From Bordetella sp. (GTDB lineage Bacteria; Pseudomonadota; Alphaproteobacteria; Caulobacterales; Caulobacteraceae), in assembly GCA_017308115.1 (NCBI GenBank), contig JAFKFS010000016.1, positions 37-64,036 on the forward strand: 64,000 nucleotides of DNA, read 5' to 3'. How positions within the stretch are numbered: position 1 is the stretch's first letter; each line of letters opens with the position of its first letter. Below, piece after piece: positions 21,834 through 36,382 of the stretch. A program made the position numbers and the translations under genes. The notes below the pieces were generated by a model, which saw only the letters and a list, made by a program, of their open reading frames with translations, made no database searches and had not been told where the DNA came from.

Positions 21834-23465
<1,632 letters not shown>

Positions 23466-23482
23466 TTCCACGGGAGGACGCG

Positions 23483-24163
23483 GTGTCGACCACACGCCCC
23501 AAGGGCCAGACTCTGGCCCTGCTGTTGCTTCTCATCGCCCTTCTGGCGCCGGCCGTGCTGCTGGTCGCGGTCTGCGGCGCCCGGCTGGACGTGTGGAGCG
23601 CCGAATTCAGTCTGGGCGTGCTGGCCATGAAGGTCGGGCGGGCGCTGGCCTTCGCCGGACTGGCGGCCGCCCTGGCCGCCTGCCTCCTGGCGTTTCGGGA
23701 GCGGCGGCTGCTCGGGATCGCCGCCGCGGCCCTGGCGATCTCGGGCGCGACGGTCGCCGGCTATCTGGTGCAGGAGCGTCGCTTCACCGCCGCGCCGCGC
23801 GACGTGGCGACCGATCCGTCCGATCCGCCCGCCTTCGCCCGCATTCTGGCGGCGGAGCGGCGCCTGGCCGGCGTTTCGGAAAGCCGGCCCCAGGCCTGCG
23901 AGGGGCTGACCCCGGCGTCGACCCAGGTTGCGCCGGAGACGGCGGCCTGGGCGCTGGAGAAGGCGGGCTTCACCGTCCTGGGCACGGCGCCGTTCCGGGT
24001 CGACGGGCGCAAGGAAGGCGCCTGGTTCGGCCTGACCTATGACGTCGCCGTTCGTATTCGCCCCGGCCGCACCGATGTCCGCGTCGCCGGGCGCGACGAC
24101 CTGCGGGCGGGGGATGAAGCCTGTCGCCTGGCCAAGGCCGTCGTCGCCGGATTGACGCCCTGA
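23483..24163 (+). CDS. Membrane protein, DUF1499-like
   Basis: GGAGG RBS plus GTG; three N-terminal TM helices, DVATDPSDPPAF, FGLTYDVAVRI. Confidence 0.65.
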   Translation: MSTTRPKGQTLALLLLLIALLAPAVLLVAVCGARLDVWSAEFSLGVLAMKVGRALAFAGLAAALAACLLAFRERRLLGIAAAALAISGATVAGYLVQERRFTAAPRDVATDPSDPPAFARILAAERRLAGVSESRPQACEGLTPASTQVAPETAAWALEKAGFTVLGTAPFRVDGRKEGAWFGLTYDVAVRIRPGRTDVRVAGRDDLRAGDEACRLAKAVVAGLTP

Positions 24164-24166
24164 GAG

Positions 24167-25084
24167 TCAGAACGCCGGATCGCTCAGCCGCCAGGTCGCG
24201 CCCAGTTCGGGCTTGGGCGACGCTTGGACCCTGCCTTCCTTCTCCAGCTTGATCAGGTGCGCTAGCACTGAAAGGCTGGCGGCCGGCCACAGGCGCTCAT
24301 CCACCCCGGCGTAGAGGGCGGGGACCATCTCCTCGATCCTGCGATCGCCCGAGGCCAGCCGAGCCATGATCTGGGCCTCGCGCTCCAGGCGATGGGCGCG
24401 GTAGGCCTTCACAAAGGGCGCGACCTGGGTGATCGCCGGGCCGTGCGTCGGCCAGATCGTCGAGAAGCCGCGCGACAAAACGGCGTCCAGGCTTTTCATG
24501 TAATCGGCCATGTCGCCGTCCGGCGGCGCCACGACGGTGGTCGACCAGCCCATGATGTGATCGCCGCTGAACAGGGCGTTTTCTTCCCGCAGGACGAAGG
24601 CCATGTGGTTGGAGGCGTGTCCCGGCGTGGCCAGGGCCTCCAGCGTCCAGCCGTCGCCTTCGATCCGCTCGCCGCCCCTCAGCGTCACGTCGCAATGGAA
24701 GTCGGCGTCGTCGTCTTCATCCAGGGGGCCTGAGGCGTGAACGGCCCGTTCCGGGGGGCGGGCGGCCAGGATCGGCGCGCCCCCGACCGCCTCCGCCAGC
24801 GGGCGGGCGAGGGGGGCGTGATCCCTATGGGTGTGCGTCACCAGGATGCAGCTGACGGTGCGGCCTTCGATCGCGCGAAGCAGGGCCGCCAGATGAGCCT
24901 CGTCCATAGGGCCGGGATCGATCACCGCGATCTCCGCCCCCGGCCGATCGCGCCCGACGATGTAGGTTCCCGTTCCCGTGAAGGTGAACGGCCCGGGATT
25001 GTCGGCGATCACCCGCTGGATCAGCGGCGAAACCTGATCGCGGCGCCCATAGGCGAAGTCGAACTGTCGAACGTAGGGGATCAT
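24167..25084 (-). CDS. MBL-fold metallo-hydrolase
   Basis: NPGPFTFTGTGTY, VIDPGP, THTHRDH, TPGHASNH, FSGDH, PTHG. Confidence 0.93.
   Translation of the reverse strand: MIPYVRQFDFAYGRRDQVSPLIQRVIADNPGPFTFTGTGTYIVGRDRPGAEIAVIDPGPMDEAHLAALLRAIEGRTVSCILVTHTHRDHAPLARPLAEAVGGAPILAARPPERAVHASGPLDEDDDADFHCDVTLRGGERIEGDGWTLEALATPGHASNHMAFVLREENALFSGDHIMGWSTTVVAPPDGDMADYMKSLDAVLSRGFSTIWPTHGPAITQVAPFVKAYRAHRLEREAQIMARLASGDRRIEEMVPALYAGVDERLWPAASLSVLAHLIKLEKEGRVQASPKPELGATWRLSDPAF
24868..25082 (-). repeat. Left arm of the ~213-bp inverted repeat (5' end of the MBL gene)
   Basis: Reverse complement aligns to 33111-33321 with about 12 mismatches and 2 small deletions (manual count). Confidence 0.92.
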
Positions 25085-25202
25085 CGATCTCGCACCCTCC
25101 AGAGGCTTCTGGTCTCCGACATATGAGCACGTCCGTCGGCAGGAAAGGCCAGTCCTGCCGAACTCATGCCGATGTGGCCGCGAGGAGGCGCGTTGGGAAA
25201 AT

Positions 25203-25778
25203 CTATTGTCGTTTCACGCGCACGGCGCGGCTGCGGCCTATGGTCAGAAGGTAGCTGCCTAGCGTGGCCCGACGTACTCGAACCTCCGCTCCTGGCTGGT
25301 TGCGGAAACGGACCGGCGCTGAATCGATCTGACGCCATTCGGCTCCGTCGGCCAGGTGAAAGGTCCATTTTCCTTCGGAGTTTTGGGAGGCTGTTGTCAG
25401 TGTGGTTTCCACAGCCTCCGCCTCGACATCATCTTCGCGTCCTTTTCCGAGAATGGAAGACAGATCTGGCGAGTTGAAACCAAAAAGTTGACGGCGTGCT
25501 TCGCGTATCTGCCCGCGTTCCACCACGACCAGGTCTCCTGCTTGCTCCGCCGCGTCTAACGCTTGGGTCGCGCGATCATAGCAGGCGAGGCGATCCGTAT
25601 CTGAACCTATCGCCCGACACGCTGTCAGGGATGCGAGGCCGGGCGTCTGCGGTGTGGCTGAAGTTTGGGCCATAGCGGCGGATGGAGAGGAAAATTGGGT
25701 CGCGGCTAGGGCTAGTATGACAATCCTAGTGCGCAACTTGCATAATTTTCCAAAATTATGGCGAGAGGCAGTGTTCAT
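25203..25778 (-). CDS. Secreted hypothetical protein A (TBDR-associated; paralog of 32570-33097)
   Basis: Signal-peptide-like N-terminus (alternative TTG start at 25736), CR-I...RLACYD Cys pair, ARRQLFGF, WTFHLADGAEWRQID, LGSY...SRAVRV. Confidence 0.85.
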   Translation of the reverse strand: MNTASRHNFGKLCKLRTRIVILALAATQFSSPSAAMAQTSATPQTPGLASLTACRAIGSDTDRLACYDRATQALDAAEQAGDLVVVERGQIREARRQLFGFNSPDLSSILGKGREDDVEAEAVETTLTTASQNSEGKWTFHLADGAEWRQIDSAPVRFRNQPGAEVRVRRATLGSYLLTIGRSRAVRVKRQ

Positions 25779-25989
25779 GATCGGGCTTGGCTCAAGAGTG
25801 TCTAATTTGCGACATGACGACGGCGAGCGTGTTACGGTTCGGATTTTCGCGTAGCCTTTGTCTCATATAGCGATCTAAGCTTTCCGTCAGCTAGTATCCG
25901 AGTGTCTTTGTGGTGCTCTGGTTCGAGACTGGCCGCGCCGAACGATGAAGTGAAGACTTCGTGATGTTTGGCGCTTCTCAGGAGGATGA

Positions 25990-28900
25990 ATGTTGAAATT
26001 ACATATGAAACGTGAGCGGTTGCTGGCGTCGACGATGATCGCTGGCTTCGCGCTCGTTGGGCTTTCGACGCCTGCCGCGGCGCAGACGGCGGACGAACAG
26101 GTCAGTCAGGTCAGCGACATCGTCGTGACCGGTTCGCGCCTGCGTCAGCCCAACCTGACCACCACCAGCCCCGTGACCCAGGTGACGGGCGAGGACATCG
26201 ACGTTCAGGGCGTGACCCGCGTCGAGGACCTGGTGTCGCAGTTGCCGCAAGCTTTCGCCGCCCAGAACTCGACTGTCGCCAACGGCGCTTCGGGCACGGC
26301 GACCGTGTCGCTGCGCAACCTCGGTTCGTCGCGCACCCTGGTGCTGATCGACGGCAAGCGCATGGGCTACGGCTCGCCCGAGGACGACGCCGCCGACCTG
26401 AACCAGATTCCGGGTCAGATGGTCGAGCGCGTCGAAGTCCTGACCGGCGGCGCCTCGGCTGTCTACGGTTCGGACGCCATCGCCGGTGTCGTGAACTTCA
26501 TCATGCGTCGTAACTTCGAAGGCGTCGAAATCGACGCTTCGTACGGCTTCTATCAGCACAACAACGACTATGACGGCGTGGGCGATCTGCGCAGCGTCAT
26601 CGCCGGCCGGGCCCAAACCAACCCGTCGCAGTTCCAACTGCCCGACGACAACGTTCAGACCGGCTTCAGCCGCGAAGTGAACATCCTGATGGGCGTCAAC
26701 GCTCCCGATGATCGCGGCAACATCACTCTGTACGCCGGTTATCGTAAGAACAACAAGGTTCTGGGCCGCGACTACGACTATTCGTCCTGTTCGCTGGGCG
26801 GCCAATCCGGCAACGCCTTTACCTGCGGCGGTTCCGGCACCTCCTTCCCGGGTCAGTTCACCGACTTCGCCACCTATGCCTATACGGTCGACGCGAGCGG
26901 CAACTTCATTCCCTATACCGCGGGCCTTCACGCCTATAACTTCGGTCCGCTGAACTATTTCCAGCGTCCGGACGAGCGTTACACCCTGGGCGCCTTCGGT
27001 CACTATGACGTGACTGATAAGGTCGAACTCTACACCCAGCTGATGTTCAGCGATTATTCGACCGTCGCGCAGATCGCGCCGTCGGGTAACTTCTTCGGCG
27101 AATTCGCCAACGGCTTCCGCACGACCGACGGCAGCTCGCTCATCAGCTGCGACAATCCCCTGCTGAGCGATCAGCAAAGGAATGCGGTGGGCTGCGCGCC
27201 CGGCCAGCAGGTGGACATGTACATCGGTCGCCGCAACGTCGAAGGCGGCGGTCGTCAATCCGACCTGCGTTATCAGGCCTATCGCGGCGTCCTCGGCGCA
27301 CGCGGCGATCTGAACGACGCCTGGAGCTACGACCTGGCGATTCAGTATTCGCGCTCGCAATACACCCAAGTCTATCGCAACGAGTTCTCCAACACCCGCC
27401 TGGCGCGCGCGCTCGACGTGGTGACGGACCCCAGCACCGGCAACCCGGTCTGCTCGTCGGTGCTGGCGGGAATCGATGCCGATTGCGTGCCCTACAACAT
27501 CTTCCGTTCCGGCGGGGTGACGCAGCAGGCGCTCGACTATCTGCAGGTGCCGCTGATCGCGACCGGCTGGACCACCCAGCAGGTCGTCACCGGCTCGCTG
27601 ACGGCCGACCTGGGTTCCTATGGGTTGAAGTCGCCGTGGGCGACGCGCGGCGTGCAGGCGGCGTTCGGCGCCGAGTATCGCCGTGACGCCCTGGACCTGA
27701 CGCCCGACGTCTCCTTCACCAGCGGCGACGGCGCGGGTCAAGGCGGCGCAAAGATGGGCCTGAACGGCGCCAACCAAGTCTATGACCTCTTCCTGGAAGC
27801 CCAGGTTCCGATCGCCGAAGGCATGGCGTTCGCTGATCAACTGTCGGTCGACCTGGCCTATCGTCATTCGGAGTATGAACTGGGCGGCGGCACGGATTCG
27901 TGGAAGATCGGCGGCGATTGGGCTCCGGTTCCGTCGGTTCGTTTCCGCGCAAGCGCCCAGCGCGCCGTCCGCGCCCCGAACGTGATCGAGTTGTTCACGG
28001 CTCAAGGCTTCAACCTGTTCGACATGGACGCCGACCCCTGCGACAAGAACGCTGCGGGCACCTATGCGGGCGACGCCGCCTGTATCGGCACCAACCCGTG
28101 GCAGGTGAGGCCGGACCAGGCCGTCAGCATGGGCATCTCCAGCCCGTCAGGGCAGTACAACTTCCTGCAAGGCGGCAGTACGTCGCTGACGCCTGAAGAA
28201 TCCGACACCCTGACGCTGGGCGTCGTCTTCACGCCGGAGTTCCTCCCAGGCTTCAATCTGACGTTGGACTATTTCAACATCGAGATTGACAACCTGATCT
28301 CGTCGATCGGCGCTCAGAACTCCCTGGACGCCTGCTATACGGCAGGTCTCGCGGCGGCTTGCGCCAACATCGAGCGTAACGCTAACGGCCAGCTGTGGGT
28401 CGGCATCGGCAATGTCGTTGACCTGAACACCAACATCGGGGGCCTCAAGACCTCGGGTCTGGATATCGCGGCCAACTACAGCATCGATCTGGCCGATTTC
28501 GGCTGGGATCGCGCCGGTCGCCTGGGCTTCGCCATGGTCGGCACCCTGCTGAACTCGCTGGAGACCGATACCGGGCTGGGCTTCGCCAACTCCAAGTACG
28601 ACTGCGCCGGCTTCTACGCCAACCAGTGCGGTGTGCCGAACCCGGAATGGCGTCACCGCTTCCGCGTTGACTGGCAGACCCCGATCGAGGGCCTGAATAT
28701 GAACGGCACCTGGCGCTACTACGGTGAAGCCGAAATCGCCGTTCTGGGGGCCGACGGCAGCCTGAACAACGCACCGGCCAACCGTCTGGATCGAGTTCTG
28801 GACTCCCAGAACTACTTCGACCTGGCCGGCACCTGGCAGATGCGGGACAATGTCTCGCTGCGCGCCGGCGTGAACAACGTCTTCGATTCCGATCCGCCGC

Positions 28901-29001
28901 TGTCCTACTCGGTCGGCACGACGGGTAACAACAACACCTACCCGCAACTGTACAACGCTATGGGCCGCTACTTCTTCTTCGGCGTCACGGCGAACTTCTA
29001 A
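25990..29001 (+). CDS. TonB-dependent receptor 1 (1003 aa)
   Basis: AGGAGG RBS, signal peptide, DIVVTGSR TonB-box region, plug RTLVLIDGKR and VYGSDAIAGVVNFI, C-terminal GVTANF; several Cys-pair loops. Confidence 0.95.
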   Translation: MLKLHMKRERLLASTMIAGFALVGLSTPAAAQTADEQVSQVSDIVVTGSRLRQPNLTTTSPVTQVTGEDIDVQGVTRVEDLVSQLPQAFAAQNSTVANGASGTATVSLRNLGSSRTLVLIDGKRMGYGSPEDDAADLNQIPGQMVERVEVLTGGASAVYGSDAIAGVVNFIMRRNFEGVEIDASYGFYQHNNDYDGVGDLRSVIAGRAQTNPSQFQLPDDNVQTGFSREVNILMGVNAPDDRGNITLYAGYRKNNKVLGRDYDYSSCSLGGQSGNAFTCGGSGTSFPGQFTDFATYAYTVDASGNFIPYTAGLHAYNFGPLNYFQRPDERYTLGAFGHYDVTDKVELYTQLMFSDYSTVAQIAPSGNFFGEFANGFRTTDGSSLISCDNPLLSDQQRNAVGCAPGQQVDMYIGRRNVEGGGRQSDLRYQAYRGVLGARGDLNDAWSYDLAIQYSRSQYTQVYRNEFSNTRLARALDVVTDPSTGNPVCSSVLAGIDADCVPYNIFRSGGVTQQALDYLQVPLIATGWTTQQVVTGSLTADLGSYGLKSPWATRGVQAAFGAEYRRDALDLTPDVSFTSGDGAGQGGAKMGLNGANQVYDLFLEAQVPIAEGMAFADQLSVDLAYRHSEYELGGGTDSWKIGGDWAPVPSVRFRASAQRAVRAPNVIELFTAQGFNLFDMDADPCDKNAAGTYAGDAACIGTNPWQVRPDQAVSMGISSPSGQYNFLQGGSTSLTPEESDTLTLGVVFTPEFLPGFNLTLDYFNIEIDNLISSIGAQNSLDACYTAGLAAACANIERNANGQLWVGIGNVVDLNTNIGGLKTSGLDIAANYSIDLADFGWDRAGRLGFAMVGTLLNSLETDTGLGFANSKYDCAGFYANQCGVPNPEWRHRFRVDWQTPIEGLNMNGTWRYYGEAEIAVLGADGSLNNAPANRLDRVLDSQNYFDLAGTWQMRDNVSLRAGVNNVFDSDPPLSYSVGTTGNNNTYPQLYNAMGRYFFFGVTANF

Positions 29002-29024
29002 ACCTTCGCAGAGGGTTGAAATCG

Positions 29025-29056
29025 GGCGGCGAGCTTTCGGGCTCGCCGCCTTTTTT
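29025..29056 (+). terminator. Rho-independent terminator of TBDR1
   Basis: GGCGGCGAGC/GCTCGCCGCC stem followed by T6. Confidence 0.88.
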
Positions 29057-29230
29057 GCGGCCTCACATCTGCTGTTGGTGAACCGGCGCCTCAGGCGCAT
29101 AGCATCCTTGGTTAGCCATCCTGGCCCAAGTGGCGGGATGACTGACGCGTCGCCGAACCCAAATTGAGCGATCCGTGCAACCAGGCGCAACTTGTCGTTC
29201 CGGCGACCTCTCAATGTGAAGGCGGCATAG

Positions 29231-29261
29231 AAAAAGGCGGCGGACCCGAGGATCCGCCGCC
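29231..29261 (-). terminator. Rho-independent terminator of TBDR2
   Basis: GGCGGCGGA/TCCGCCGCC stem followed by T5 on the minus strand. Confidence 0.85.
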
Positions 29262-29285
29262 CAGTCTTGAAGTCCGATCTACGGC

Positions 29286-32200
29286 TTAGAAGCGCGCCGT
29301 CAGACCCACGAAGTAACGACGACCGAGCACGTCATAGGTCGACGGGTCGGTGTTCGACTGGATGTTGGGCGAATACAGCTGCGGCTGCTCATCCAGAACG
29401 TTGTTCACGCCGGCGCGCAGCGAGACGGTGTCGTTGACATCCCACGAACCGCGCAGGTCGAAGTACCACACGGAGTCCGTGCCGGTGCCGGCGCCGCCGG
29501 TCACAGTGTTCGAGTGACGCATTTCGTCAATGTAACGAGCCGTAGCCGTCAGCGAGAACGGATCCAGCGACCAGCTACCTTGAACGGTGTGGCGCCATTC
29601 CGGCGTAGCCGAACCGGTGCCCGTACCGATGGTGCCGACGTAGTCGTAAACAGGATCAACGGTCGACAGTTGGCTGGTGTACTTCTCAACCCAGGTCGAC
29701 AGGACGTTCACGCCGAACGAACCCACCGATTCCGTGTCGAAGCGAACGTTGAAGGCAACGTCCACGCCCGAAGTTTCGGTGAAGGCCTGGTTACGAGACA
29801 GCAGCTTGAGCTTCTCGATGCCGCCGGTGGCCTGGTTGCGTTGGAACAGCCGGCACCACTCGTTGTTCGGATCGAAGGTCGGGTTCGCGTTGTCGCGGTT
29901 GAAGCAACGCTGAACCACGGTGCCCGCGCTCGGAGCCGAGATCACGTCTTCCAACGAGATCGACCAGTAGTCGACAGACAGGTAGAGCGAGTCAGCCCAA
30001 CCACCGGTGTTGAACGGCGATTGAGAAACGAAGCCCAAGGTCCACGATTCCGAGGTTTCCGGCATCAGATCCGGGTTACCGCCGGTGATGGTGTTCGCTT
30101 GGCTCTCCCAAGCGAAGGTCGGGTCGCCCGCGACGATCGCTTGCTTGGCGCAGAGTTCAGCAACCTTGGCGCCGTTCGCACCGTTACGGCCGAAGATGGC
30201 GGTCGTCGGTTGCCGGACATCGCACGGGTCCTGACGGTCGAACGACGGGAAGTTGTTCGTCTGCGGCGAGAACAGTTCCGAGATGGAGGGCGAACGGACA
30301 GCCGTTTGCATGCCGCCGCGGATGCGGAACCAGTCGTTGACGGCCCATTCCAGGTTAGCCTTCCACGATTCCGACGACCCCGAGTTCGAGTTGTCCGAAA
30401 CGCGGTAGCCCAGCGACAGCGACATGTCCTTGGCGAAGGCCACGTCCTTGACGATCGGCACCAGAAGTTCGGCGAACAGGTCCGTCCAGTTCAGGAAGCC
30501 CGAAACCGGCGATTGTTCGTTGAAGCCCGCCACGATGCCCGGCTGCAGGCCGCTGTCCGGACGGAAGTTGAAGTCCAGTTCGCGGTAGCTCATGCCGAAC
30601 GCGCCCTGCAGGGGGCCAGCCGGCAGTTCGAACAGGTCGCCGTTGACGGTCGCTTCAACGATTGACTGCTCGATCACGGTCAGGTTCTTGGCTTCGAGGC
30701 TGATGTAAGCCGCGCAGGTCGGATCGATCGGAGCCGAACCAAACAGGTTCAGACCGTTCGGGCACTTGCCGCCCGACAAAGCCGCCTGTTCGGCGATGGT
30801 CGGAGCGCGGAACGCGGCAACGCGAGCTGCGTATTGAGCATCGGTTTCGGTATCGCGCTTGGCGTCAACATGACCCAACAGCAGGCCAACGCGGTCACGA
30901 CGAACGTTGCCGCCTTGAATTTCGTTCAGGACCGAACGACCAAACGACGCATAGACGTCATACTGCCAGGTGTTGGTGCGCGCCAGACGGCCCTTGGTGC
31001 CGAGCGTAGCTTGCCAGACGTCGTGGGTGTTGTAGCCGGTACGGCCGCCCAGGTCGTTAAAGCGCTTCGAGAAGGCGAAAGGAGCGGTCGGGTCCGGACG
31101 CAGAGCCAGAAGACCAGCCAACTGCGAGCCGATGAAGGGGTTGCTAGCCGCAACGTTCCAGCCGGTCGAACCGCCAGCCGGCGTCGGAGCCAGTTCCTGC
31201 AGGGCGTTGTAGTTCGTGTACATCGCCTGGACATACGGCTTGAACTGCTCGTTGACCTCGTAGTTCATGCGGGTGAACAGGTTCCACCGCTCCATCGGCA
31301 GGACGAGGATGTTGTCCGGCTCGAAGTTGTACGAGAAGACGTTCGGAGCAAAATTCGTTGCGATAGCCGATTCAGGACCGGTATAGCCGTACATGTTGTA
31401 GACGGAGCTGGCGGTCAGACCGCTACAGAACAGGCTGCCGTCCGGGTTGAAGCCAAAGCCCGCGTGACCGCCGGTGTTGGCGCAACGATTGGCGCCGCCG
31501 AAGTAGGCGTCAACCGCAGCTTGGGTCGGACGGTTTGCGGCGATCATACCGGCAGTACCGCCCGGGAAGATCGTCGTGGTCGACGAGGCTTGACCTGAGA
31601 ACTCGCGGGCGTCCTTGTACATGGCTTCACGGTTGAAGTAGCCGGCGTTGAAGACCGCGTTACCCTTACCGTCAGCGAAGTTGCCGCCGAAGGTGATGTC
31701 GGTCGACCACTCTTGGCCGTCGCCTTGTTCGGTCAGACGGTACTGCGAGTCGAGCTGGATGCCTTCAAAGCTGTCACGCAGGATGAAGTTCACAACACCC
31801 GACACGGCGTCAGCGCCGTAGGTCGAGGCGGCGCCGCCCGAGATGATTTCGACGCGCTGGATCAGCGACGCCGGAATAGTGTTGGTGTCGACGGTGCCAC
31901 CAGCCGTGGAACCCATCGGGCGACGACCATCGATCAGGACCAGGTTACGACCCGAACCCAGACCGCGCAGATCGATGAAGGCGCGGCCGTTCGAGGACGG
32001 GTTGTTCGACTGCGAGGACAGACCGGCCGTGATTTGCGGCAGGGTGTTCAGATAGTGCTCGACGGTCGTCGCGCCGGAGTGGGTGATGTCTTCCTGCTGA
32101 ACGGTCAGGATCGGGCTTTCAGCAACCGCGTCCCGGCGCGCGATGCGCGAGCCGGTCACCACGATCTCATCGACGCGCGTAGCGTCGTCCTGCGAAGCGC

Positions 32201-32294
32201 TTTGGGCGAGAGCAGGAACTGCGAAGCCTGCAGATGCGACCCCAATGATCATCGACGTAGCAAGAAGCCGCTTCCGATGTTTCCTATAGGCCAA
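29286..32294 (-). CDS. TonB-dependent receptor 2 (~1002 aa)
   Basis: TTG start with GGAGGG RBS; EIVVTGSR, RNLVLIDGRR, TYGADAVSGVVNFI, C-terminal VGLTARF. Confidence 0.95.
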   Translation of the reverse strand: MAYRKHRKRLLATSMIIGVASAGFAVPALAQSASQDDATRVDEIVVTGSRIARRDAVAESPILTVQQEDITHSGATTVEHYLNTLPQITAGLSSQSNNPSSNGRAFIDLRGLGSGRNLVLIDGRRPMGSTAGGTVDTNTIPASLIQRVEIISGGAASTYGADAVSGVVNFILRDSFEGIQLDSQYRLTEQGDGQEWSTDITFGGNFADGKGNAVFNAGYFNREAMYKDAREFSGQASSTTTIFPGGTAGMIAANRPTQAAVDAYFGGANRCANTGGHAGFGFNPDGSLFCSGLTASSVYNMYGYTGPESAIATNFAPNVFSYNFEPDNILVLPMERWNLFTRMNYEVNEQFKPYVQAMYTNYNALQELAPTPAGGSTGWNVAASNPFIGSQLAGLLALRPDPTAPFAFSKRFNDLGGRTGYNTHDVWQATLGTKGRLARTNTWQYDVYASFGRSVLNEIQGGNVRRDRVGLLLGHVDAKRDTETDAQYAARVAAFRAPTIAEQAALSGGKCPNGLNLFGSAPIDPTCAAYISLEAKNLTVIEQSIVEATVNGDLFELPAGPLQGAFGMSYRELDFNFRPDSGLQPGIVAGFNEQSPVSGFLNWTDLFAELLVPIVKDVAFAKDMSLSLGYRVSDNSNSGSSESWKANLEWAVNDWFRIRGGMQTAVRSPSISELFSPQTNNFPSFDRQDPCDVRQPTTAIFGRNGANGAKVAELCAKQAIVAGDPTFAWESQANTITGGNPDLMPETSESWTLGFVSQSPFNTGGWADSLYLSVDYWSISLEDVISAPSAGTVVQRCFNRDNANPTFDPNNEWCRLFQRNQATGGIEKLKLLSRNQAFTETSGVDVAFNVRFDTESVGSFGVNVLSTWVEKYTSQLSTVDPVYDYVGTIGTGTGSATPEWRHTVQGSWSLDPFSLTATARYIDEMRHSNTVTGGAGTGTDSVWYFDLRGSWDVNDTVSLRAGVNNVLDEQPQLYSPNIQSNTDPSTYDVLGRRYFVGLTARF

Positions 32295-32569
32295 TTTTTT
32301 CCCTCCAGGATGGAAAAGGTTTGATTTCAATCACACGTAAAAATCGACACCGACGCCTGTCAGACATGCCTGGCGATACAGGAATCGATTTCAGCGTCGG
32401 GAACCTCTACTGGTTAAGGGACGAAATGTGGAACGCCATAATAATTCAGGCACGAATTAGCCTTCAGCATGTCTCATAATCACCACATATTGACGCAATA
32501 CGGCCACAAAATAATCGCCCTCTAATTCAGACAAAATTGCTAAAAAACGCCAAAAGAAAGCAACGGACG

Positions 32570-33097
32570 ATGACAGAGAAACATTTTTTTGCCTGCAAAT
32601 TGGCTATTTTGGCCGCATTTTTGTCCGTCCCGGCAAACGACGCCAGGGCTCAGGCCGCGCGCCCTGTCGCTGCGCTAGAACGTCTGAAAGAATGCCGTCT
32701 GATCGTCGAGGCGGACGCGCGGGCGCGTTGTTTCGAAGCCGGCGCCGCATCCCTGATTTCCACCTACGACAACGGCGACCTGATCATTATCGAGCGCGCC
32801 CAGGCGGACGCCGCCCGACGGGCGATGTTCGGTTTCTCGGCGCCGAGCCTGCCTGCTGTGTTCGGCGGCGACGCCATAGACGCGCTGGAAACCTCGTTGG
32901 TGCGGACCGCGGGCGCCGCGAACGGCGCCTGGATATTCCACCTTGCAGACGGCTCCGTATGGCGGCAGATCGACAACACGCGCGTAGCCAACCCCCGCAA
33001 TCGTCAAGGAGAACCCGTCATCGTCCGAAAGGCGGCGTTGGGCAGCTACTTCCTCAAAATCGGGGACAGCCGAGCGATACGCGTTCGGCGAGAGTAA
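32570..33097 (+). CDS. Secreted hypothetical protein B (TBDR-associated; paralog of 25203-25778)
   Basis: Signal-peptide-like N-terminus, CRLI...RARCFE, ARRAMFGF, WIFHLADGSVWRQID, LGSY...SRAIRV. Confidence 0.85.
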   Translation: MTEKHFFACKLAILAAFLSVPANDARAQAARPVAALERLKECRLIVEADARARCFEAGAASLISTYDNGDLIIIERAQADAARRAMFGFSAPSLPAVFGGDAIDALETSLVRTAGAANGAWIFHLADGSVWRQIDNTRVANPRNRQGEPVIVRKAALGSYFLKIGDSRAIRVRRE

Positions 33098-33110
33098 AGG
33101 CGTGACTGGC

Positions 33111-33321
33111 GATCCCCTGGGTTCGACAGTTCGACTTCGCCTATGGGCGCCGCGATCAGGTTTCGCCGCTGATCTAGTAGGTGATCGCCGACAACCCCGG
33201 GCCGTTCACCTTCACGGGAACGGGAAGCTACATCGTCGGGCGCGATCGGCCGAGGCGGAGATCGCGATGATCGATCCTGGCCCGGACGAGGCTCGTCTGT
33301 CGGCCCTGCTTCGCGCGATCG
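33111..33321 (+). pseudogene. Degenerate copy of the 5' 215 nt of the MBL hydrolase gene (right arm of the inverted repeat)
   Basis: ~92% identical by manual alignment; ATG lost, CAG CGG changed to TAG TAG in frame, 1-nt and 3-nt deletions. Confidence 0.9.
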
Positions 33322-33487
33322 GTCGAAGCGCGACTTCCGTTCGCGGGCTTCCAGGCGTCGGTTCGGCGGGCCGCGCGCGACGTTTCATCGGACGCGCAGA
33401 AGCACGCTCGCAAGAAGGGCGGATTGTTTCGGATCGGGTTTTGCGAGGGGAGGGGGGGGCGCGCCACTCCCTCATGTCTGAGAGGAG

Positions 33488-33564
33488 TGGCGCGAGTGAC
33501 GGGGCTCGAACCCGCGACCTCCGGCGTGACAGGCCGGCACTCTAACCAACTGAGCTACACCCGC
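33488..33564 (-). tRNA. tRNA-Asp (GTC)
   Basis: GCGGGTGTAGCTCAGTTGGTTAGAGTGCCGGCCTGTCACGCCGGAGGTCGCGGGTTCGAGCCCCGTCACTCGCGCCA; anticodon arm CCGGC-CTGTCAC-GCCGG; encoded CCA. Confidence 0.97.
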
Positions 33565-33665
33565 GTTTCTTCCCGCAAGGAGAAGAGGAGGGGCGAATAC
33601 GGTTCGCGGCGCTTGCGGTCAAGCGCATTGTGGCGTTTCCGCTGAAAAATCTGCGAATTCAGGCG

Positions 33666-34208
33666 CTAGCGGCCGCAATCGAGGCCTTGGGCGTCGGGCG
33701 GGGCGTCGCCGCCGGGGCCGAGCGCCTTCTGCATGAAGACGACGTCGCGCCAGCCGTCGAACTTCCATCCGGCGTCGCGGAAGGCGCCCGCGTGGACGAA
33801 GCCCGCCGCCGCGTGCAGGGCGATGGAGCCGGTGTTGGCGCTGTCGCCGATCACCGCCACCATCTGGCGCATCCCCAGGGCCGCGCAGGCGTCGAGCAGG
33901 GCGTCCAACAGAGCCTTGCCCACGCCCCGGCCCCGATGGGTTTCGGCGACATAGATCGAATCCTCGACCATGAAGCGATAGGCGGCGCGCAGGCGATAGG
34001 GCGCGGCGTAGGCGTAGCCGGCGATCGCCCCGTCGATCTCGGCGACCAGGACAGGCAGGCCCAGGGCGGCGGGCGCGGCCAGGCGCGCCGCCATGTCTTC
34101 CGGCGAGGGGACGTCCAATTCGAACGTCCCCGTGCCCTGCAGCACGCTGTCGGCGTAGATGGCCGTCACGGCCGCCAGATCGGCCCCGGCGAACGGCCGG
34201 ACGATCAT
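33666..34208 (-). CDS. GNAT acetyltransferase (phosphinothricin/methionine-sulfoximine acetyltransferase family)
   Basis: GTFELDVP, GYAYA, VEDSIYV, RGRGVGKALL, SIALHAAAGF, KFDGWRDV. Confidence 0.88.
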   Translation of the reverse strand: MIVRPFAGADLAAVTAIYADSVLQGTGTFELDVPSPEDMAARLAAPAALGLPVLVAEIDGAIAGYAYAAPYRLRAAYRFMVEDSIYVAETHRGRGVGKALLDALLDACAALGMRQMVAVIGDSANTGSIALHAAAGFVHAGAFRDAGWKFDGWRDVVFMQKALGPGGDAPPDAQGLDCGR

Positions 34209-36382
34209 GCCTTTTCCCAGCCTTTTTCGACGGCCCAGACGGCGAAGGCGTAGTCGTGGGCGATGTCCTTGAGATAGTCGAAGCGCCCGGATGAGGCGAA
34301 ATGCCCGGCCTCCATATTGATCTTCAGCAGGACCGGCTTGCCCGAGGTCGAGGCCGGCCGCAGCCTGGCCACCCACTTCTGGGGCTCCCAATAGGTGACG
34401 CGCGGGTCGGACAGGCCCCCGGTCGCCAGCACCGCCGGATAGGGCTTGCTCTCGATCTGGTCGTAGGGGCTGTAGCTCAGCATGTAGTCATAGGCCGCCG
34501 CATCCTCGAGCGGGTTGCCCCACTCGGGCCATTCCGGCGGCGTCAGCGGCAGGCTGGTGTCGCTCATGGTGTTGATGACATCGACGAAGGGCACGCCCCC
34601 GATCACCCCCGCCCACAGTTCGGGGCGCATATTGGTCACGGCCCCCATCAGCAGGCCGCCCGCCGAGCGCCCCTCGGCCACGATGTTGCCGGCCCTGGCG
34701 TAGTTCCGGGCGATCAGGTGGTCGGCGGCGGCGATGAAGTCGGTGAAGGTGTTCTTCTTGGTGAAGCGTCGGGCGGTCAGGAACCAGTTCCAGCCCTTGT
34801 CCGAGCCGCCGCGGATATGGGCGATGGCGTAGATGAAGCCCCGGTCGACCAGCGACAGCCGGTTGGTCGAGAAACTGGCCGCCATCGGGATGCCGTAGGA
34901 GCCGTAGCCGTAGAGCAGCAGGGGCGCCGAGCCGTCGACCGGCGTGTCGTTGCGCCGCAGCACCGTCACCGGCACCAGCTCGCCATCGGAAGCCGGCGCG
35001 TTCAGACGCTCGACCACATAGTCCGCCGGATCATGGCCCGAGGGGATTTCCTGCACCTTGCGCAGGGTCCGCTCTCGGGTCTTCAGATCATAGTCATAGG
35101 TCGAGGTCGGCGTGGACGGCGAATTATAGCCGTAGCGCATGACCGTGGTGTCGAACTCCGACGCCCCGCCCAGCGACAGGGCGTAGGCGGGCTCGTCCAC
35201 GGCGATCTCGTGTTCGGCACCGGCGCGGTCGCGGATGACGATCCTGGTGTTGGCGTCGGCGCGTTCCTGGCGGCCCAGATAGCCCTTCACCAGGGCCACG
35301 CCCTCGATGAAGCGCCCGGGCGTGTGGGGGATCAGGTCCTTCCAGTTGGCCTTGGCCGGGGCGTCGGTCGGCGCCTCGACCACCTTGAAGTCGACGGCGT
35401 CGTCGGCGTTGGTGCGGATCACCCAGCGGTCGCCCCAGTGGTCCAGGTCGTACAGGCGCCCGACGTGGCGCGGCTCGACCACCACGGGCGTCGCCGTCGG
35501 GGTCGCGCCGGGAATGATGCGGCCCTCGGAGGTTTCCTGATTGCCGATGCCGATGACGATGAAGGCGTCGTCGGCGGTGCGGCCGACGCTCTGGAACATG
35601 CCGTCGTCGGCTTCCTCATAGACCAGGGCCGTCTCGCCGCCGCGCGCGGGGCGGCGGAAGATCTTGTCGGGGCGGCCGTTGTCGTCGCGGTTGGTCCAGA
35701 AGATCCACCGGCTGTCGGGCGAGAAGGTGAAGTTCTCGGTCGCTGATTCGATGGGGTCTGGCAGGATTTCGCCGGTGGCCAGGTCCTTGACGTAGATCTT
35801 GTAGACTTCGGACCCCTGGGCGTCCTCGGCATAGGCGAACAGGGCGTGGTCGGGGCTGTGTTCGGTGGCGGACACCTCGGAATAGGCCTTGCCCTCGGCC
35901 AGTCTGTTGCAGTCCAGCAGGATGATCTCGCCGTCCGTTTCGCCGCGCGGGCGGCGGCAATAGAGGGGGTGCTGGTCGCCGGTGTTGTAGCGGACGTAAT
36001 ATTCCCACGGGCCGTCGGCGGCGGGGACGGAACTGTCGTCTTCCTTGATGCGGCCCTTCATCTCCTCGAACATCGCGGCCTGCAGGGGCAGGGTCGAGGC
36101 CATCATCGCTTCCCGATAGGCGTTCTCGGCGGTCAGGTGTTCCTTGACGTCGGCCTTGATCAGCGAGGGATCGCGCAGCACCGCCTGCCAGTTGTCGTCC
36201 TTCATCCACTGATAGTCGTCGATCCGCACGCGGCCCAGTTGCTCGATGCGGACAGGGACCTTCTTGGCGACGGGCGGGGCAGGCTGGGACATCGGAACTC
36301 CGGTCGTGGGGCGGGCGAGGGCGGGGGAGGCGGCCGCCACGCCGACGGCGGCGGTCGAGGCGATCAGTTCGCGACGGTTCAT
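34205..36382 (-). CDS. ptrB: Oligopeptidase B (S9A) with a twin-arginine signal
   Basis: MNRRELI Tat motif; RIDDYQWM, LLYGYGSYG, GRSAGG (Ser), DPRV (Asp), AGH (His). Confidence 0.92.
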   Translation of the reverse strand: MNRRELIASTAAVGVAAASPALARPTTGVPMSQPAPPVAKKVPVRIEQLGRVRIDDYQWMKDDNWQAVLRDPSLIKADVKEHLTAENAYREAMMASTLPLQAAMFEEMKGRIKEDDSSVPAADGPWEYYVRYNTGDQHPLYCRRPRGETDGEIILLDCNRLAEGKAYSEVSATEHSPDHALFAYAEDAQGSEVYKIYVKDLATGEILPDPIESATENFTFSPDSRWIFWTNRDDNGRPDKIFRRPARGGETALVYEEADDGMFQSVGRTADDAFIVIGIGNQETSEGRIIPGATPTATPVVVEPRHVGRLYDLDHWGDRWVIRTNADDAVDFKVVEAPTDAPAKANWKDLIPHTPGRFIEGVALVKGYLGRQERADANTRIVIRDRAGAEHEIAVDEPAYALSLGGASEFDTTVMRYGYNSPSTPTSTYDYDLKTRERTLRKVQEIPSGHDPADYVVERLNAPASDGELVPVTVLRRNDTPVDGSAPLLLYGYGSYGIPMAASFSTNRLSLVDRGFIYAIAHIRGGSDKGWNWFLTARRFTKKNTFTDFIAAADHLIARNYARAGNIVAEGRSAGGLLMGAVTNMRPELWAGVIGGVPFVDVINTMSDTSLPLTPPEWPEWGNPLEDAAAYDYMLSYSPYDQIESKPYPAVLATGGLSDPRVTYWEPQKWVARLRPASTSGKPVLLKINMEAGHFASSGRFDYLKDIAHDYAFAVWAVEKGWEKA

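What the first reader, a model, noticed from the sequence alone, without database searches (positions are those of the whole stretch)
24868..33321. Mirror-symmetric ~8-kb double-TBDR cassette bracketed by a 213-bp inverted repeat next to tRNA-Asp
Seen: order MBL(-) hypA(-) TBDR1(+) | TBDR2(-) hypB(+) MBL-fragment(+), a full palindrome at gene level. The cassette is less GC-rich than its flanks and lies 3' of tRNA-Asp, with no integrase, transposase or tRNA direct repeat. The symmetry has two ages: hypA/hypB are only ~40% identical by eye and the TBDRs are clearly divergent, while the flanking repeat is ~92% identical. Inference: two old paralogous uptake modules were joined tail-to-tail by a recent event that duplicated the MBL 5' end in inverted orientation (template switch or recombinational capture), a non-canonical way of acquiring or exchanging TBDR modules at a tRNA hotspot.
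Basis: partly seen in the sequence, partly recalled or inferred. Interest (0 to 1): 0.8.

Follow-up and report, generated by a model that had tools for sequence, protein, structure and literature searches.

The report
Inverted receptor module with gene-fragment scar
In this Brevundimonas lineage, one of two long-resident outer-membrane receptor gene modules has been flipped, leaving a decaying 222-base copy of a neighbouring gene's start at the junction; this is an ordinary rearrangement scar, not a new way of acquiring genes.

Summary
An inverted repeat of about 222 nt (91-93% identical) brackets MBL(-) hypA(-) TBDR1(+) | TBDR2(-) hypB(+) MBL'(+), next to tRNA-Asp. No tyrosine or serine recombinase lies on the contig.

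The right arm is a dead copy of the MBL 5' end. Its ATG is lost, and it carries TAG TAG, a 1-nt frameshift and a 3-nt deletion.

B. olei, B. diminuta and metagenome relatives carry the same two modules in the same slot, but in tandem and without the fragment. The two-module cassette and its low GC are therefore ancestral, not acquired at a tRNA hotspot.

What is specific to this lineage is the inversion of the distal TBDR2-hypB module, plus a copy of the MBL 5' end at the new hypB/tRNA junction. That copy came from this lineage's own MBL, and 12 of about 15 substitutions are derived in the copy.

No second copy was found in 150 Brevundimonas species genomes, and no inverted module in 49 related loci. 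The arrangement recurs in several independent metagenomes and in strains 1-4% diverged, so it is real and not recent.

The most likely origin is a replication or repair template-switch event. This is inferred, not shown. Interest is low to moderate.

The parts
24167..25084 (-). Intact MBL-fold hydrolase gene (305 aa; Lactamase_B + BLACT_WH winged helix). It is the conserved anchor of the slot.
   Evidence: Pfam hits. Orthologues 65-92% identical in 49 Brevundimonas loci.
24868..25093 (.). Left arm of the inverted repeat. It covers the first ~73 codons of MBL plus up to ~9 nt upstream.
25085..25202 (.). 118-nt hypA-MBL spacer. It cannot be aligned between species and is a mosaic patch between strains.
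   Evidence: Homology to B. olei stops at 25084. 14 differences in 146 nt in X6/X7/X14.
25203..25778 (-). hypA: secreted 2-Cys protein of an unnamed family, co-oriented with MBL.
25990..29001 (+). TBDR1 (1003 aa; Plug + beta-barrel), the proximal module. Its orientation is the same as in all relatives.
   Evidence: 83% nt identity to B. olei, collinear.
29024..29055 (+). Intrinsic terminator of TBDR1.
   Evidence: 100% match to the L009 terminator.
29056..29225 (.). Left inversion junction: about 170 nt with no detectable homologue.
29226..33097 (.). The segment inverted relative to all relatives. It holds the TBDR2 terminator (29231-29262), TBDR2 (29286-32330, -), the divergent promoter region, and hypB (32537/32570-33097, +).
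   Evidence: blastn to B. olei, B. diminuta and L095-L097 runs in reverse orientation relative to both flanks.
33109..33321 (+). MBL' pseudogene, the right arm of the repeat. Defects: ATG>GCG (33109-33111), TAG TAG (33175-33180), 1-nt deletion near 33254/33255, 3-nt deletion near 33284.
33322..33447 (.). 126-nt spacer, probably the original intergenic DNA next to the tRNA.
   Evidence: Weak alignment to the L097 spacer in the same orientation relative to the tRNA (z 3.2; 2 of 300 shuffles reach the score). No other homologue.
33488..33564 (-). tRNA-Asp (GTC), the right boundary of the slot in the B. diminuta/olei group.
   Evidence: Flank homology to relatives resumes at 33448-33459.
34205..36382 (-). 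Prolyl oligopeptidase (S9), the conserved right flank.

Best explanation
The ancestor of this lineage carried two TBDR+hyp uptake modules in tandem, as B. olei and B. diminuta still do. The order was MBL(-) hypA(-) TBDR1(+) hypB(-) TBDR2(+) tRNA-Asp. One rearrangement then inverted the complete distal module, from just past the hypB stop codon to just past the TBDR2 terminator. The same event placed a 222-nt copy of the lineage's own MBL 5' end, also inverted, between hypB and the original spacer next to the tRNA.

The most economical mechanism is a replication or repair template-switch event of the MMBIR/FoSTeS type. In this model the nascent strand left its template after the TBDR1 terminator. 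It copied the opposite strand backwards through TBDR2 and hypB, skipped about 4.1 kb on that same strand, and copied the first 222 nt of MBL. It then returned to the original template beside the tRNA.

Both modules stayed complete, each with its own promoter region, so the inversion was probably close to neutral. The MBL fragment has no function and has been decaying since. The 8-kb 'palindrome' is therefore a by-product, not a device.

Shown: the ancestral tandem state, the inverted segment and its limits, the origin and decay of the fragment, and its presence across strains. Inferred: that it was a single event, and the template-switch mechanism.
For: - Tandem state in relatives: L001, L002, L008, L013, L003 and L004, and L095-L099.
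- Orientation census: every module in 49 loci is TBDR(-)/hyp(+) relative to MBL(+).
- Limits of the inversion: both flanks are collinear with B. olei up to 25084 and from 33448 onward. TBDR1 is collinear. Only 29224-33097 is reversed.
- Uniqueness of the fragment: none of 150 Brevundimonas species genomes has a second MBL 5' copy.
- Source of the fragment: the best foreign match to MBL' is 82%, against 93% to the resident gene. Resident and copy share derived states relative to 13 outgroups.
- Decay of the fragment: 12 substitutions and 2 indels are derived in MBL', against about 3 derived or ambiguous in the resident.
- Relaxed constraint: in a strain about 1% diverged, MBL' plus spacer differs by 4%, against 0.7-1% in the TBDRs and MBL.
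- No recombinase on the contig.
- All new junctions lie within one 4.3-kb stretch, and both inverted pieces come from the same strand and direction. That fits one event.
Against: - The mechanism leaves no diagnostic trace that I could find. The junction DNA at 29056-29225 has no homologue, and no microhomology could be assessed.
- The fragment starts within about 15 nt of the MBL start codon and directly after the hypB stop. A random template switch hits such a spot only about 1 time in 20. It would instead be expected if hypB once sat natively beside MBL.
- TBDR2 and hypB are more diverged from B. olei than the flanks are (4-fold-site K 0.73 and about 1.6, against 0.38-0.55). Allele replacement has therefore also occurred in this slot, and the history may have more steps.
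- Template-switch rearrangements of this complexity are documented mainly in eukaryotes (PMC3907307, PMC7584159).
Confidence: 0.55

Rival explanations
1. Fold-back inverted duplication followed by reciprocal loss. A hairpin-primed fold-back near the TBDR2 terminator made a large palindrome: MBL-hypA-TBDR1-hypB-TBDR2 | TBDR2'-hypB'-TBDR1'-hypA'-MBL5''. Two deletions then removed the left copy of module 2 and the right copy of module 1, leaving each module once plus the MBL 5' end.
For: - Strong terminator hairpins sit at the tail-to-tail junction (29024-29055 and 29231-29262).
- Fold-back is an established route to inverted duplications (PMC3907307).
- It explains why the fragment is the MBL 5' end and why it lies on the same side as hypB's 3' end.
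Against: - It needs three events, and two deletions must end neatly at gene borders.
- No remnant of a second TBDR1, hypA or spacer copy lies between hypB and MBL' (12 nt only).
- No inverted similarity exists between 29056-29225 and 33322-33447.
Confidence: 0.15
2. Recombinational capture. A DNA fragment TBDR2-hypB-MBL(5' 222 nt) came from a conspecific or closely related chromosome in which module 2 abutted MBL. It was inserted in reverse between TBDR1 and tRNA-Asp, replacing or following loss of the resident distal module.
For: - hypB stop, then 12 nt, then the MBL' start looks like a native compact operon junction. The 15 nt upstream of MBL' resemble the RBS region upstream of MBL in B. 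diminuta.
- Module order does vary: in L042 a TBDR2 orthologue (80% aa) lies next to MBL.
- TBDR alleles cross species: L096 has TBDR2 at 91% with MBL at only 87%.
- Strains show mosaic patches.
Against: - All hypB-type homologues whose context was examined sit in the distal tandem position, never beside MBL. These are the 53-61% orthologues in L001, L002, L008 and L013, and the three database hits of 61-71% identity that I looked up (L095-L099).
- MBL' derives from this lineage's own MBL, so any donor had to be conspecific.
- Reverse insertion exactly beside the homologous locus has no homology-based rationale.
Confidence: 0.15
3. A functional invertible switch. RecA-mediated recombination between the two arms flips the 8-kb segment. 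That would put the defective 5' end on the MBL body, switching MBL off, and would swap which module lies upstream of it.
For: Perfect blocks of 54, 31 and 25 nt are long enough for occasional homologous recombination, by established knowledge of minimal processing segments.
Against: - The fragment evolves as neutral DNA (12 derived substitutions, indels, 4% between strains). A maintained switch would conserve its arms.
- In X6 and X7, unitigs that cross the block show only the assembled phase on both arms. No opposite-strand joint between the blocks was reported in 8 runs.
- There is no dedicated recombinase.
- No other Brevundimonas has this arrangement.
Confidence: 0.06
4. Assembly artefact of a metagenome-assembled genome: a misjoin at a repeat.
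For: The genome is a 204-contig assembly. k=31 unitigs break inside the 54-nt perfect block, so some data sets cannot phase the arms.
Against: - Independent studies and diverged strains give unitigs that cross every junction: X1 26552-33150, X8 33005-33517, X6 24968-25636 and 32479-33225, X14 28626-32680.
- The arms differ at about 8% of sites, so reads of 100 nt or more phase them.
Confidence: 0.02

Closest known systems
Complex rearrangements made by replication or repair template switching (FoSTeS/MMBIR), with templated insertions at inversion junctions
   Same: An inverted segment and a short copy of nearby sequence in the same inverted orientation at the junction. There is no repeat or mobile element at the breakpoints, and all junctions are clustered.
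   Different: These are described mainly in human and tumour genomes (PMC3907307; discussion in PMC7584159). Here it is a fixed, old event in a bacterial chromosome.
[quoted passage not shown]
   Same: An inverted duplication of a few hundred bases associated with an inversion, without transposons.
   Different: In that model the two copies flank the inverted segment. Here the parent copy lies 4.1 kb outside the inverted module. The 8 kb between the copies is not inverted as a whole, because TBDR1-hypA keep the ancestral orientation.
tRNA-linked genomic islands
   Same: Lower GC than the flanks, position next to a tRNA gene, and variable occupancy among species (0, 1 or 2 modules).
   Different: There is no integrase, no direct repeat of the tRNA end, and no mobility genes. 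The content is orthologous and syntenic in related species. The modules follow the MBL gene even where no tRNA is near.
Invertible DNA switches (invertons, shufflons, Hin/Gin-type systems)
   Same: A DNA segment bracketed by inverted repeats.
   Different: There is no site-specific recombinase. The arms are a decaying gene fragment rather than conserved crossover sites. Only one orientation was seen, and only one lineage has it.
TonB-dependent receptor loci of Caulobacterales and Xanthomonas (carbohydrate-scavenging TBDR loci, PMC1790865)
   Same: Receptors of about 1000 aa with Plug and barrel domains, in an aquatic alphaproteobacterium rich in TBDRs. TBDR2 weakly matches the TonB-Xanth-Caul subfamily.
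   Different: The partner is an uncharacterised secreted 2-Cys protein, not a degradative enzyme, inner-membrane transporter or regulator. The substrate is unknown.

Membership tests
tRNA-linked genomic island | Integrase or recombinase gene at the island border | tested here: not met
   PF00589 and PF00239 searches of the whole genome give 8 and 4 hits, none on contig C144.
tRNA-linked genomic island | Direct repeat of the tRNA 3' end at the far border | tested here: not met
   No direct repeat in 22000-36000. The only other match to the tRNA segment is a second tRNA-Asp gene on C168.
tRNA-linked genomic island | Sporadic presence with foreign composition, and absence of orthologous content in close relatives | tested here: not met
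   Both modules are orthologous and syntenic in B. olei and B. diminuta. Their modules show the same GC dip.
Site-specific invertible switch | Dedicated recombinase next to the invertible segment | tested here: not met
   The ORFs in and around the cassette are MBL, hyp, TBDR, DUF1499 and a peptidase.
Site-specific invertible switch | Both orientations present in a population | tested here: inconclusive
   Only the assembled phase is seen in unitigs that cross the repeat block (X6, X7, X8). k=31 contigs cannot exclude a rare flipped form, and no raw or long reads were available.
Staggered-break inversion with terminal inverted duplications | The two copies of the duplicated sequence flank the inverted segment | tested here: not met
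   The inverted segment is 29226-33097. The parent copy is at 24868-25093, separated from it by the uninverted hypA-TBDR1 module.
Composite transposon or IS-mediated rearrangement | The terminal inverted repeats are IS elements or encode a transposase | tested here: not met
   The arms are the MBL 5' coding sequence. They contain no ORF other than MBL, and the sequence occurs only twice in the genome.
TonB-dependent receptor | N-terminal Plug domain plus C-terminal 22-strand barrel domain, full length | tested here: met
   PF07715 and PF00593 are above their cut-offs in both proteins. Both align end to end with orthologues.
MBL-fold metallo-hydrolase (resident gene) | Lactamase_B domain; here also the BLACT_WH winged helix | tested here: met
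   PF00753 at 59.5 bits and PF17778 at 57 bits. The substrate is unknown, and no NCBIfam equivalog reaches its cut-off.
Pseudogene (MBL') | Homology to a functional gene together with disabling lesions and relaxed constraint | tested here: met
   Start codon lost, two in-frame stops, a frameshift, and truncation after codon ~73. There are 12 derived substitutions in the copy against about 3 in the parent. Divergence between strains is 4%, against about 1% in the neighbouring TBDR and MBL genes.

The most novel reading that the evidence does not exclude
The decayed MBL 5' copy still shares 54-, 31- and 25-nt perfect blocks with the live gene. It could therefore act as a recombinase-free flip-flop. 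Rare RecA-mediated inversion of the 8-kb segment would graft the start-less, stop-containing 5' end onto MBL, silencing it, and would exchange which TBDR-hyp module sits upstream. That would give the population a heritable, reversible off state.

A weaker variant concerns the conserved MBL 5' end itself. It could be the homology anchor by which whole TBDR-hyp modules are swapped between Brevundimonas species in this slot.
Probability: 0.07. Interest if true: 0.55.

Novelty: new member of a known kind. Interest (0 to 1): 0.25.

Why it matters
The direct value is corrective. What looks like a mirror-symmetric cassette captured at a tRNA hotspot is an old, resident pair of receptor modules, one of which was flipped in a single lineage.

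It is a clean bacterial example of an inversion with a templated gene-fragment insertion, made without IS elements, rRNA repeats or recombinases. The ancestral state is preserved in sister species, and the scar can be dated roughly by its decay. Such cases are rarely documented in bacteria.

The wider context may be of more interest than the palindrome. The slot between MBL and tRNA-Asp/POP holds 0, 1 or 2 TBDR+hyp modules across the genus. Receptor alleles cross species boundaries. The partner is a fast-evolving, uncharacterised secreted protein. This pattern is typical of surface receptors under diversifying selection, for example from phages or bacteriocins, although that selection was not tested here.

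Tried and rejected
1. Homologues of the junction DNA (29056-29225, 33322-33447, spacer 25085-25202). I searched the own genome and 99 loci with blastn at word size 7, and ran Smith-Waterman alignments with shuffles. Nothing was found except a weak match of 33322-33447 to the spacer next to the tRNA in L097.

2. MBL remnants beyond 33321, or TBDR/hyp remnants at the junctions, by tblastn at E up to 10. There were none beyond MBL residue ~80.

3. Staggered-break model. Rejected because the parent copy does not flank the inverted segment.

4. Two-step routes through a whole-cassette inversion or a swapped module order (L042-like). Each needs at least two further inversions, so I judged them less parsimonious.

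5. Dating by 4-fold-site divergence. K4 is compressed by GC3 bias (0.4-0.75 across the whole genus), so I use it only qualitatively.

6. Function of hyp. Pfam and NCBIfam gave only a sub-threshold VasI N-terminal motif. The AF2 model (pLDDT 78) has no PDB fold match better than E = 0.035.

7. Long-read runs to test for flipping. None could be listed.

8. A lone 'opposite strands' joint 24566/33239 in X14, and several 'skips' near 24540-24909. Their short sides are only 20-38 nt. I treated them as other organisms' MBL genes, not as evidence of rearrangement.
Full report
**What is there**

The window is almost the whole of one 64-kb contig of a 204-contig Brevundimonas genome. ORF listing and Pfam give the following order:
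- acyl-CoA ligase (+)
- DUF1499-like gene (+)
- MBL-fold hydrolase, 24167-25084 (-)
- hypA, 25203-25778 (-)
- TBDR1, 25990-29001 (+)
- TBDR2, 29286-32330 (-)
- hypB, 32537/32570-33097 (+)
- a 222-nt MBL 5' fragment, 33100-33321 (+)
- tRNA-Asp, 33488-33564 (-)
- an S9 prolyl oligopeptidase (-)

The inverted repeat is real. It consists of three colinear blocks of 156, 38 and 30 nt at 92-95% identity, split by two small indels. Identity is 93% by BLAST, and the sequence occurs only twice in the genome. hypA and hypB are 40% identical, and the two receptors 29%. The cassette has GC 0.61 against 0.69 in both flanks. No tyrosine or serine recombinase gene lies on the contig.

**The right arm is a pseudogene**

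Read in the MBL frame, the right arm has the following lesions:
- GCG in place of ATG.
- CAG CGG turned into TAG TAG at 33175-33180.
- A 1-nt deletion near 33254/33255.
- A 3-nt deletion near 33284.
- An end after about codon 73, with nothing MBL-like beyond.

I polarised the differences with 13 outgroup MBL genes. Twelve substitutions and both indels are derived in the fragment, and about three sites are derived or ambiguous in the live gene. The two copies share derived states that B. olei and B. diminuta lack.

Among 150 Brevundimonas species genomes, the best foreign match to the fragment is 82%, against 93% to the resident gene. No other genome has a second copy. The fragment was therefore copied from this lineage's own MBL after the split from B. 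olei, and has decayed since.

**What the relatives show**

I fetched 80 loci around MBL orthologues and mapped the window's proteins onto them.

- In the B. diminuta/olei group, the interval between MBL and tRNA-Asp/POP holds no module (L005, L012), a hyp gene alone (L007), one module (L006, L009) or two (L001-L004, L008, L013).
- B. olei, three B. diminuta-group genomes (L002, L008, L013) and five metagenome contigs (L095-L099) carry orthologues of both of the window's modules. TBDR1 is 78-88% identical and TBDR2 74-91%.
- In all of them the order is POP, tRNA-Asp, TBDR2(-), hypB(+), TBDR1(-), hypA(+), MBL(+). That is a tandem arrangement with no MBL fragment.
- In all 49 Brevundimonas loci, every module has the same orientation relative to MBL.

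Nucleotide comparison with B. olei, B. diminuta and the closest module-2 relative, L097 (88% nt), gives these results:
- Both flanks are collinear with the relatives, up to the MBL start codon (25084) on the left and from 33448 onward on the right.
- TBDR1 is collinear.
- Only 29224/29226-33097 is reversed. This segment runs from the TBDR2 terminator to the hypB stop.

The relatives' modules show the same GC dip. In species outside this group, modules sit next to MBL with no tRNA-Asp within 10 kb.

The cassette is therefore ancestral. The event in this lineage was an inversion of the complete distal module plus the insertion of the MBL fragment at the new hypB/tRNA junction.

**Reality and age**

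Logan contigs from several independent studies hold the junction region at 70-95% of its sampled words.

- A 6.6-kb unitig in X1 (26552-33150, no differences) crosses the tail-to-tail junction and runs into MBL'.
- X8 has a unitig covering hypB, MBL' and the tRNA (33005-33517).
- In the diverged strains X6 and X7, unitigs cross the 54-nt perfect block on each arm in the assembled phase.
- X14, a strain about 1% diverged, has the same order throughout.

In X14 the fragment plus spacer differs by 4%, against 0.7-1% in the receptors and MBL. That is the behaviour of unconstrained DNA.

The arrangement therefore predates the diversification of the sampled strains and is not an artefact. 'Recent' holds only relative to the age of the paralogous modules. 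Four-fold-site distances proved too compressed by GC3 bias to give a proper date.

**How it arose**

No model is proven. The junction DNA at 29056-29225 has no homologue anywhere I could search. The spacer 33322-33447 aligns weakly to the spacer next to the tRNA in L097, in the original orientation. It is therefore probably original intergenic DNA.

- **Staggered-break model** (summarised in PMC7584159). It does not fit. The parent copy of the duplication lies 4.1 kb outside the inverted segment, and hypA-TBDR1 between them are not inverted.
- **Template switch, which I favour (about 0.55).** This would be one replication or repair event. After the TBDR1 terminator the nascent strand copied the opposite strand back through TBDR2 and hypB. 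It skipped about 4.1 kb on that strand, copied 222 nt of MBL, and returned beside the tRNA. This accounts for all new junctions, for the shared orientation of the two inverted pieces, and for the lack of any other duplication.
- **Weakness of that model.** The fragment begins within about 15 nt of the MBL start and directly after the hypB stop. This looks like a native operon junction, and the 15 nt upstream of MBL' resemble the ribosome-binding region of B. diminuta MBL.
- **Fold-back rival (about 0.15).** A fold-back palindrome (PMC3907307) followed by two deletions.
- **Capture rival (about 0.15).** Capture of a conspecific fragment in which hypB abutted MBL. Against this, every hypB-type homologue whose context I examined lies in the distal tandem position. 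That covers the 53-61% orthologues in L001, L002, L008 and L013, and the three database hits of 61-71% identity that I looked up in L095-L099. In its favour, L042 has a TBDR2 orthologue next to MBL. In addition, TBDR alleles clearly cross species, as L096 shows (TBDR2 91%, MBL 87%).

**Does it do anything?**

Each module moved with its own divergent promoter region, and TBDR2 moved with its terminator. Both receptors and both hyp genes are full length. The inversion should therefore be nearly neutral.

The arms keep perfect blocks of 54, 31 and 25 nt, so occasional RecA-mediated flipping is possible. A flip would graft a start-less, stop-containing 5' end onto MBL.

I found no sign of a flipped form, and the fragment is not conserved. 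I therefore rate a maintained switch at about 6%. k=31 contigs cannot exclude a rare flipped form, and no long reads were available.

**The modules**

Both receptors have Plug and barrel domains. They match only generic TBDR models, and none reaches an equivalog cut-off.

The hyp proteins belong to an unnamed family. Its features are:
- a signal peptide;
- an invariant C...RLxC(F/Y)D pair;
- a helical stretch;
- a six-strand C-terminal domain ending in SRAVRVRRQ.

The AlphaFold model has pLDDT 78, and no PDB fold matches better than E = 0.035. The substrate and the role of hyp remain unknown. TBDR-rich loci of this size in Caulobacterales and Xanthomonas are often carbohydrate scavengers (PMC1790865), but that is only an analogy.

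**Verdict**

This is a lineage-specific inversion of a resident module with a decaying gene-fragment scar. It is a new member of a known kind of rearrangement, and its interest is low to moderate.

Noticed in passing
window 25203-25778 (-) and 32570-33097 (+); alignment A2: The hyp proteins form an unnamed family of secreted proteins. No Pfam or NCBIfam model matches, and every source calls them 'hypothetical'. They share an invariant C...RLxC(F/Y)D pair and a beta-rich C-terminus ending SRAVRVRRQ. In almost every module seen, the hyp gene is divergent from a ~1000-aa TBDR, and it is always co-oriented with MBL. The AF2 model (pLDDT 78) has no PDB fold match.
   Followed up: partly
window 25096-25241 and 26474-27011: Strain-level mosaic patches in public metagenome contigs. 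There are 14 differences in 146 nt across the hypA-MBL spacer and the hypA 3' end (X6, X7, X14), and 34 differences in a 538-nt piece of TBDR1 (X7). Most of the rest of the cassette differs by about 1% or less. This suggests recombination tracts.
   Followed up: partly
L001-L049 (MBL-tRNA-Asp/POP slot): Slot occupancy varies across the genus: 0, 1 or 2 TBDR+hyp modules, a hyp gene alone (L007, L010, L022), or swapped module order (L042). hyp genes are only 53-61% identical between species whose MBL is 81-92% identical.
   Followed up: partly
L096:233-3229, L097:289-3285: The closest TBDR2 allele (91% aa, 88% nt) lies on metagenome contigs whose MBL and acyl-CoA ligase are only as close as those of B. 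diminuta (87%, 93%). Receptor alleles appear to move between species.
   Followed up: partly
L095:13490-13894, L096:8145-8549: Some relatives carry a 134-aa BLH_phosphatase (PF04273) gene between hyp and MBL. The window has only a 118-nt spacer there.
   Followed up: no
window 33449-33458; L097:80-97: A homopolymer tract lies beside tRNA-Asp. It is a G run of 8-10 here and a C17 run on the other strand in L097. Small indels at 33451 and 33473 distinguish strains.
   Followed up: no
window 33102-33545 (+): The 147-aa ORF listed over the MBL fragment is spurious. It starts out of frame with MBL, joins the MBL frame only after the frameshift, and runs antisense through tRNA-Asp.
   Followed up: yes
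window 29024-29055 and 29231-29262: The two receptor terminators are near-identical in design: 12-bp GC-rich stems (GGGCGGCG...) with a 4-nt loop. They now face each other 175 nt apart, forming a 78% inverted repeat at the centre of the cassette.
   Followed up: no
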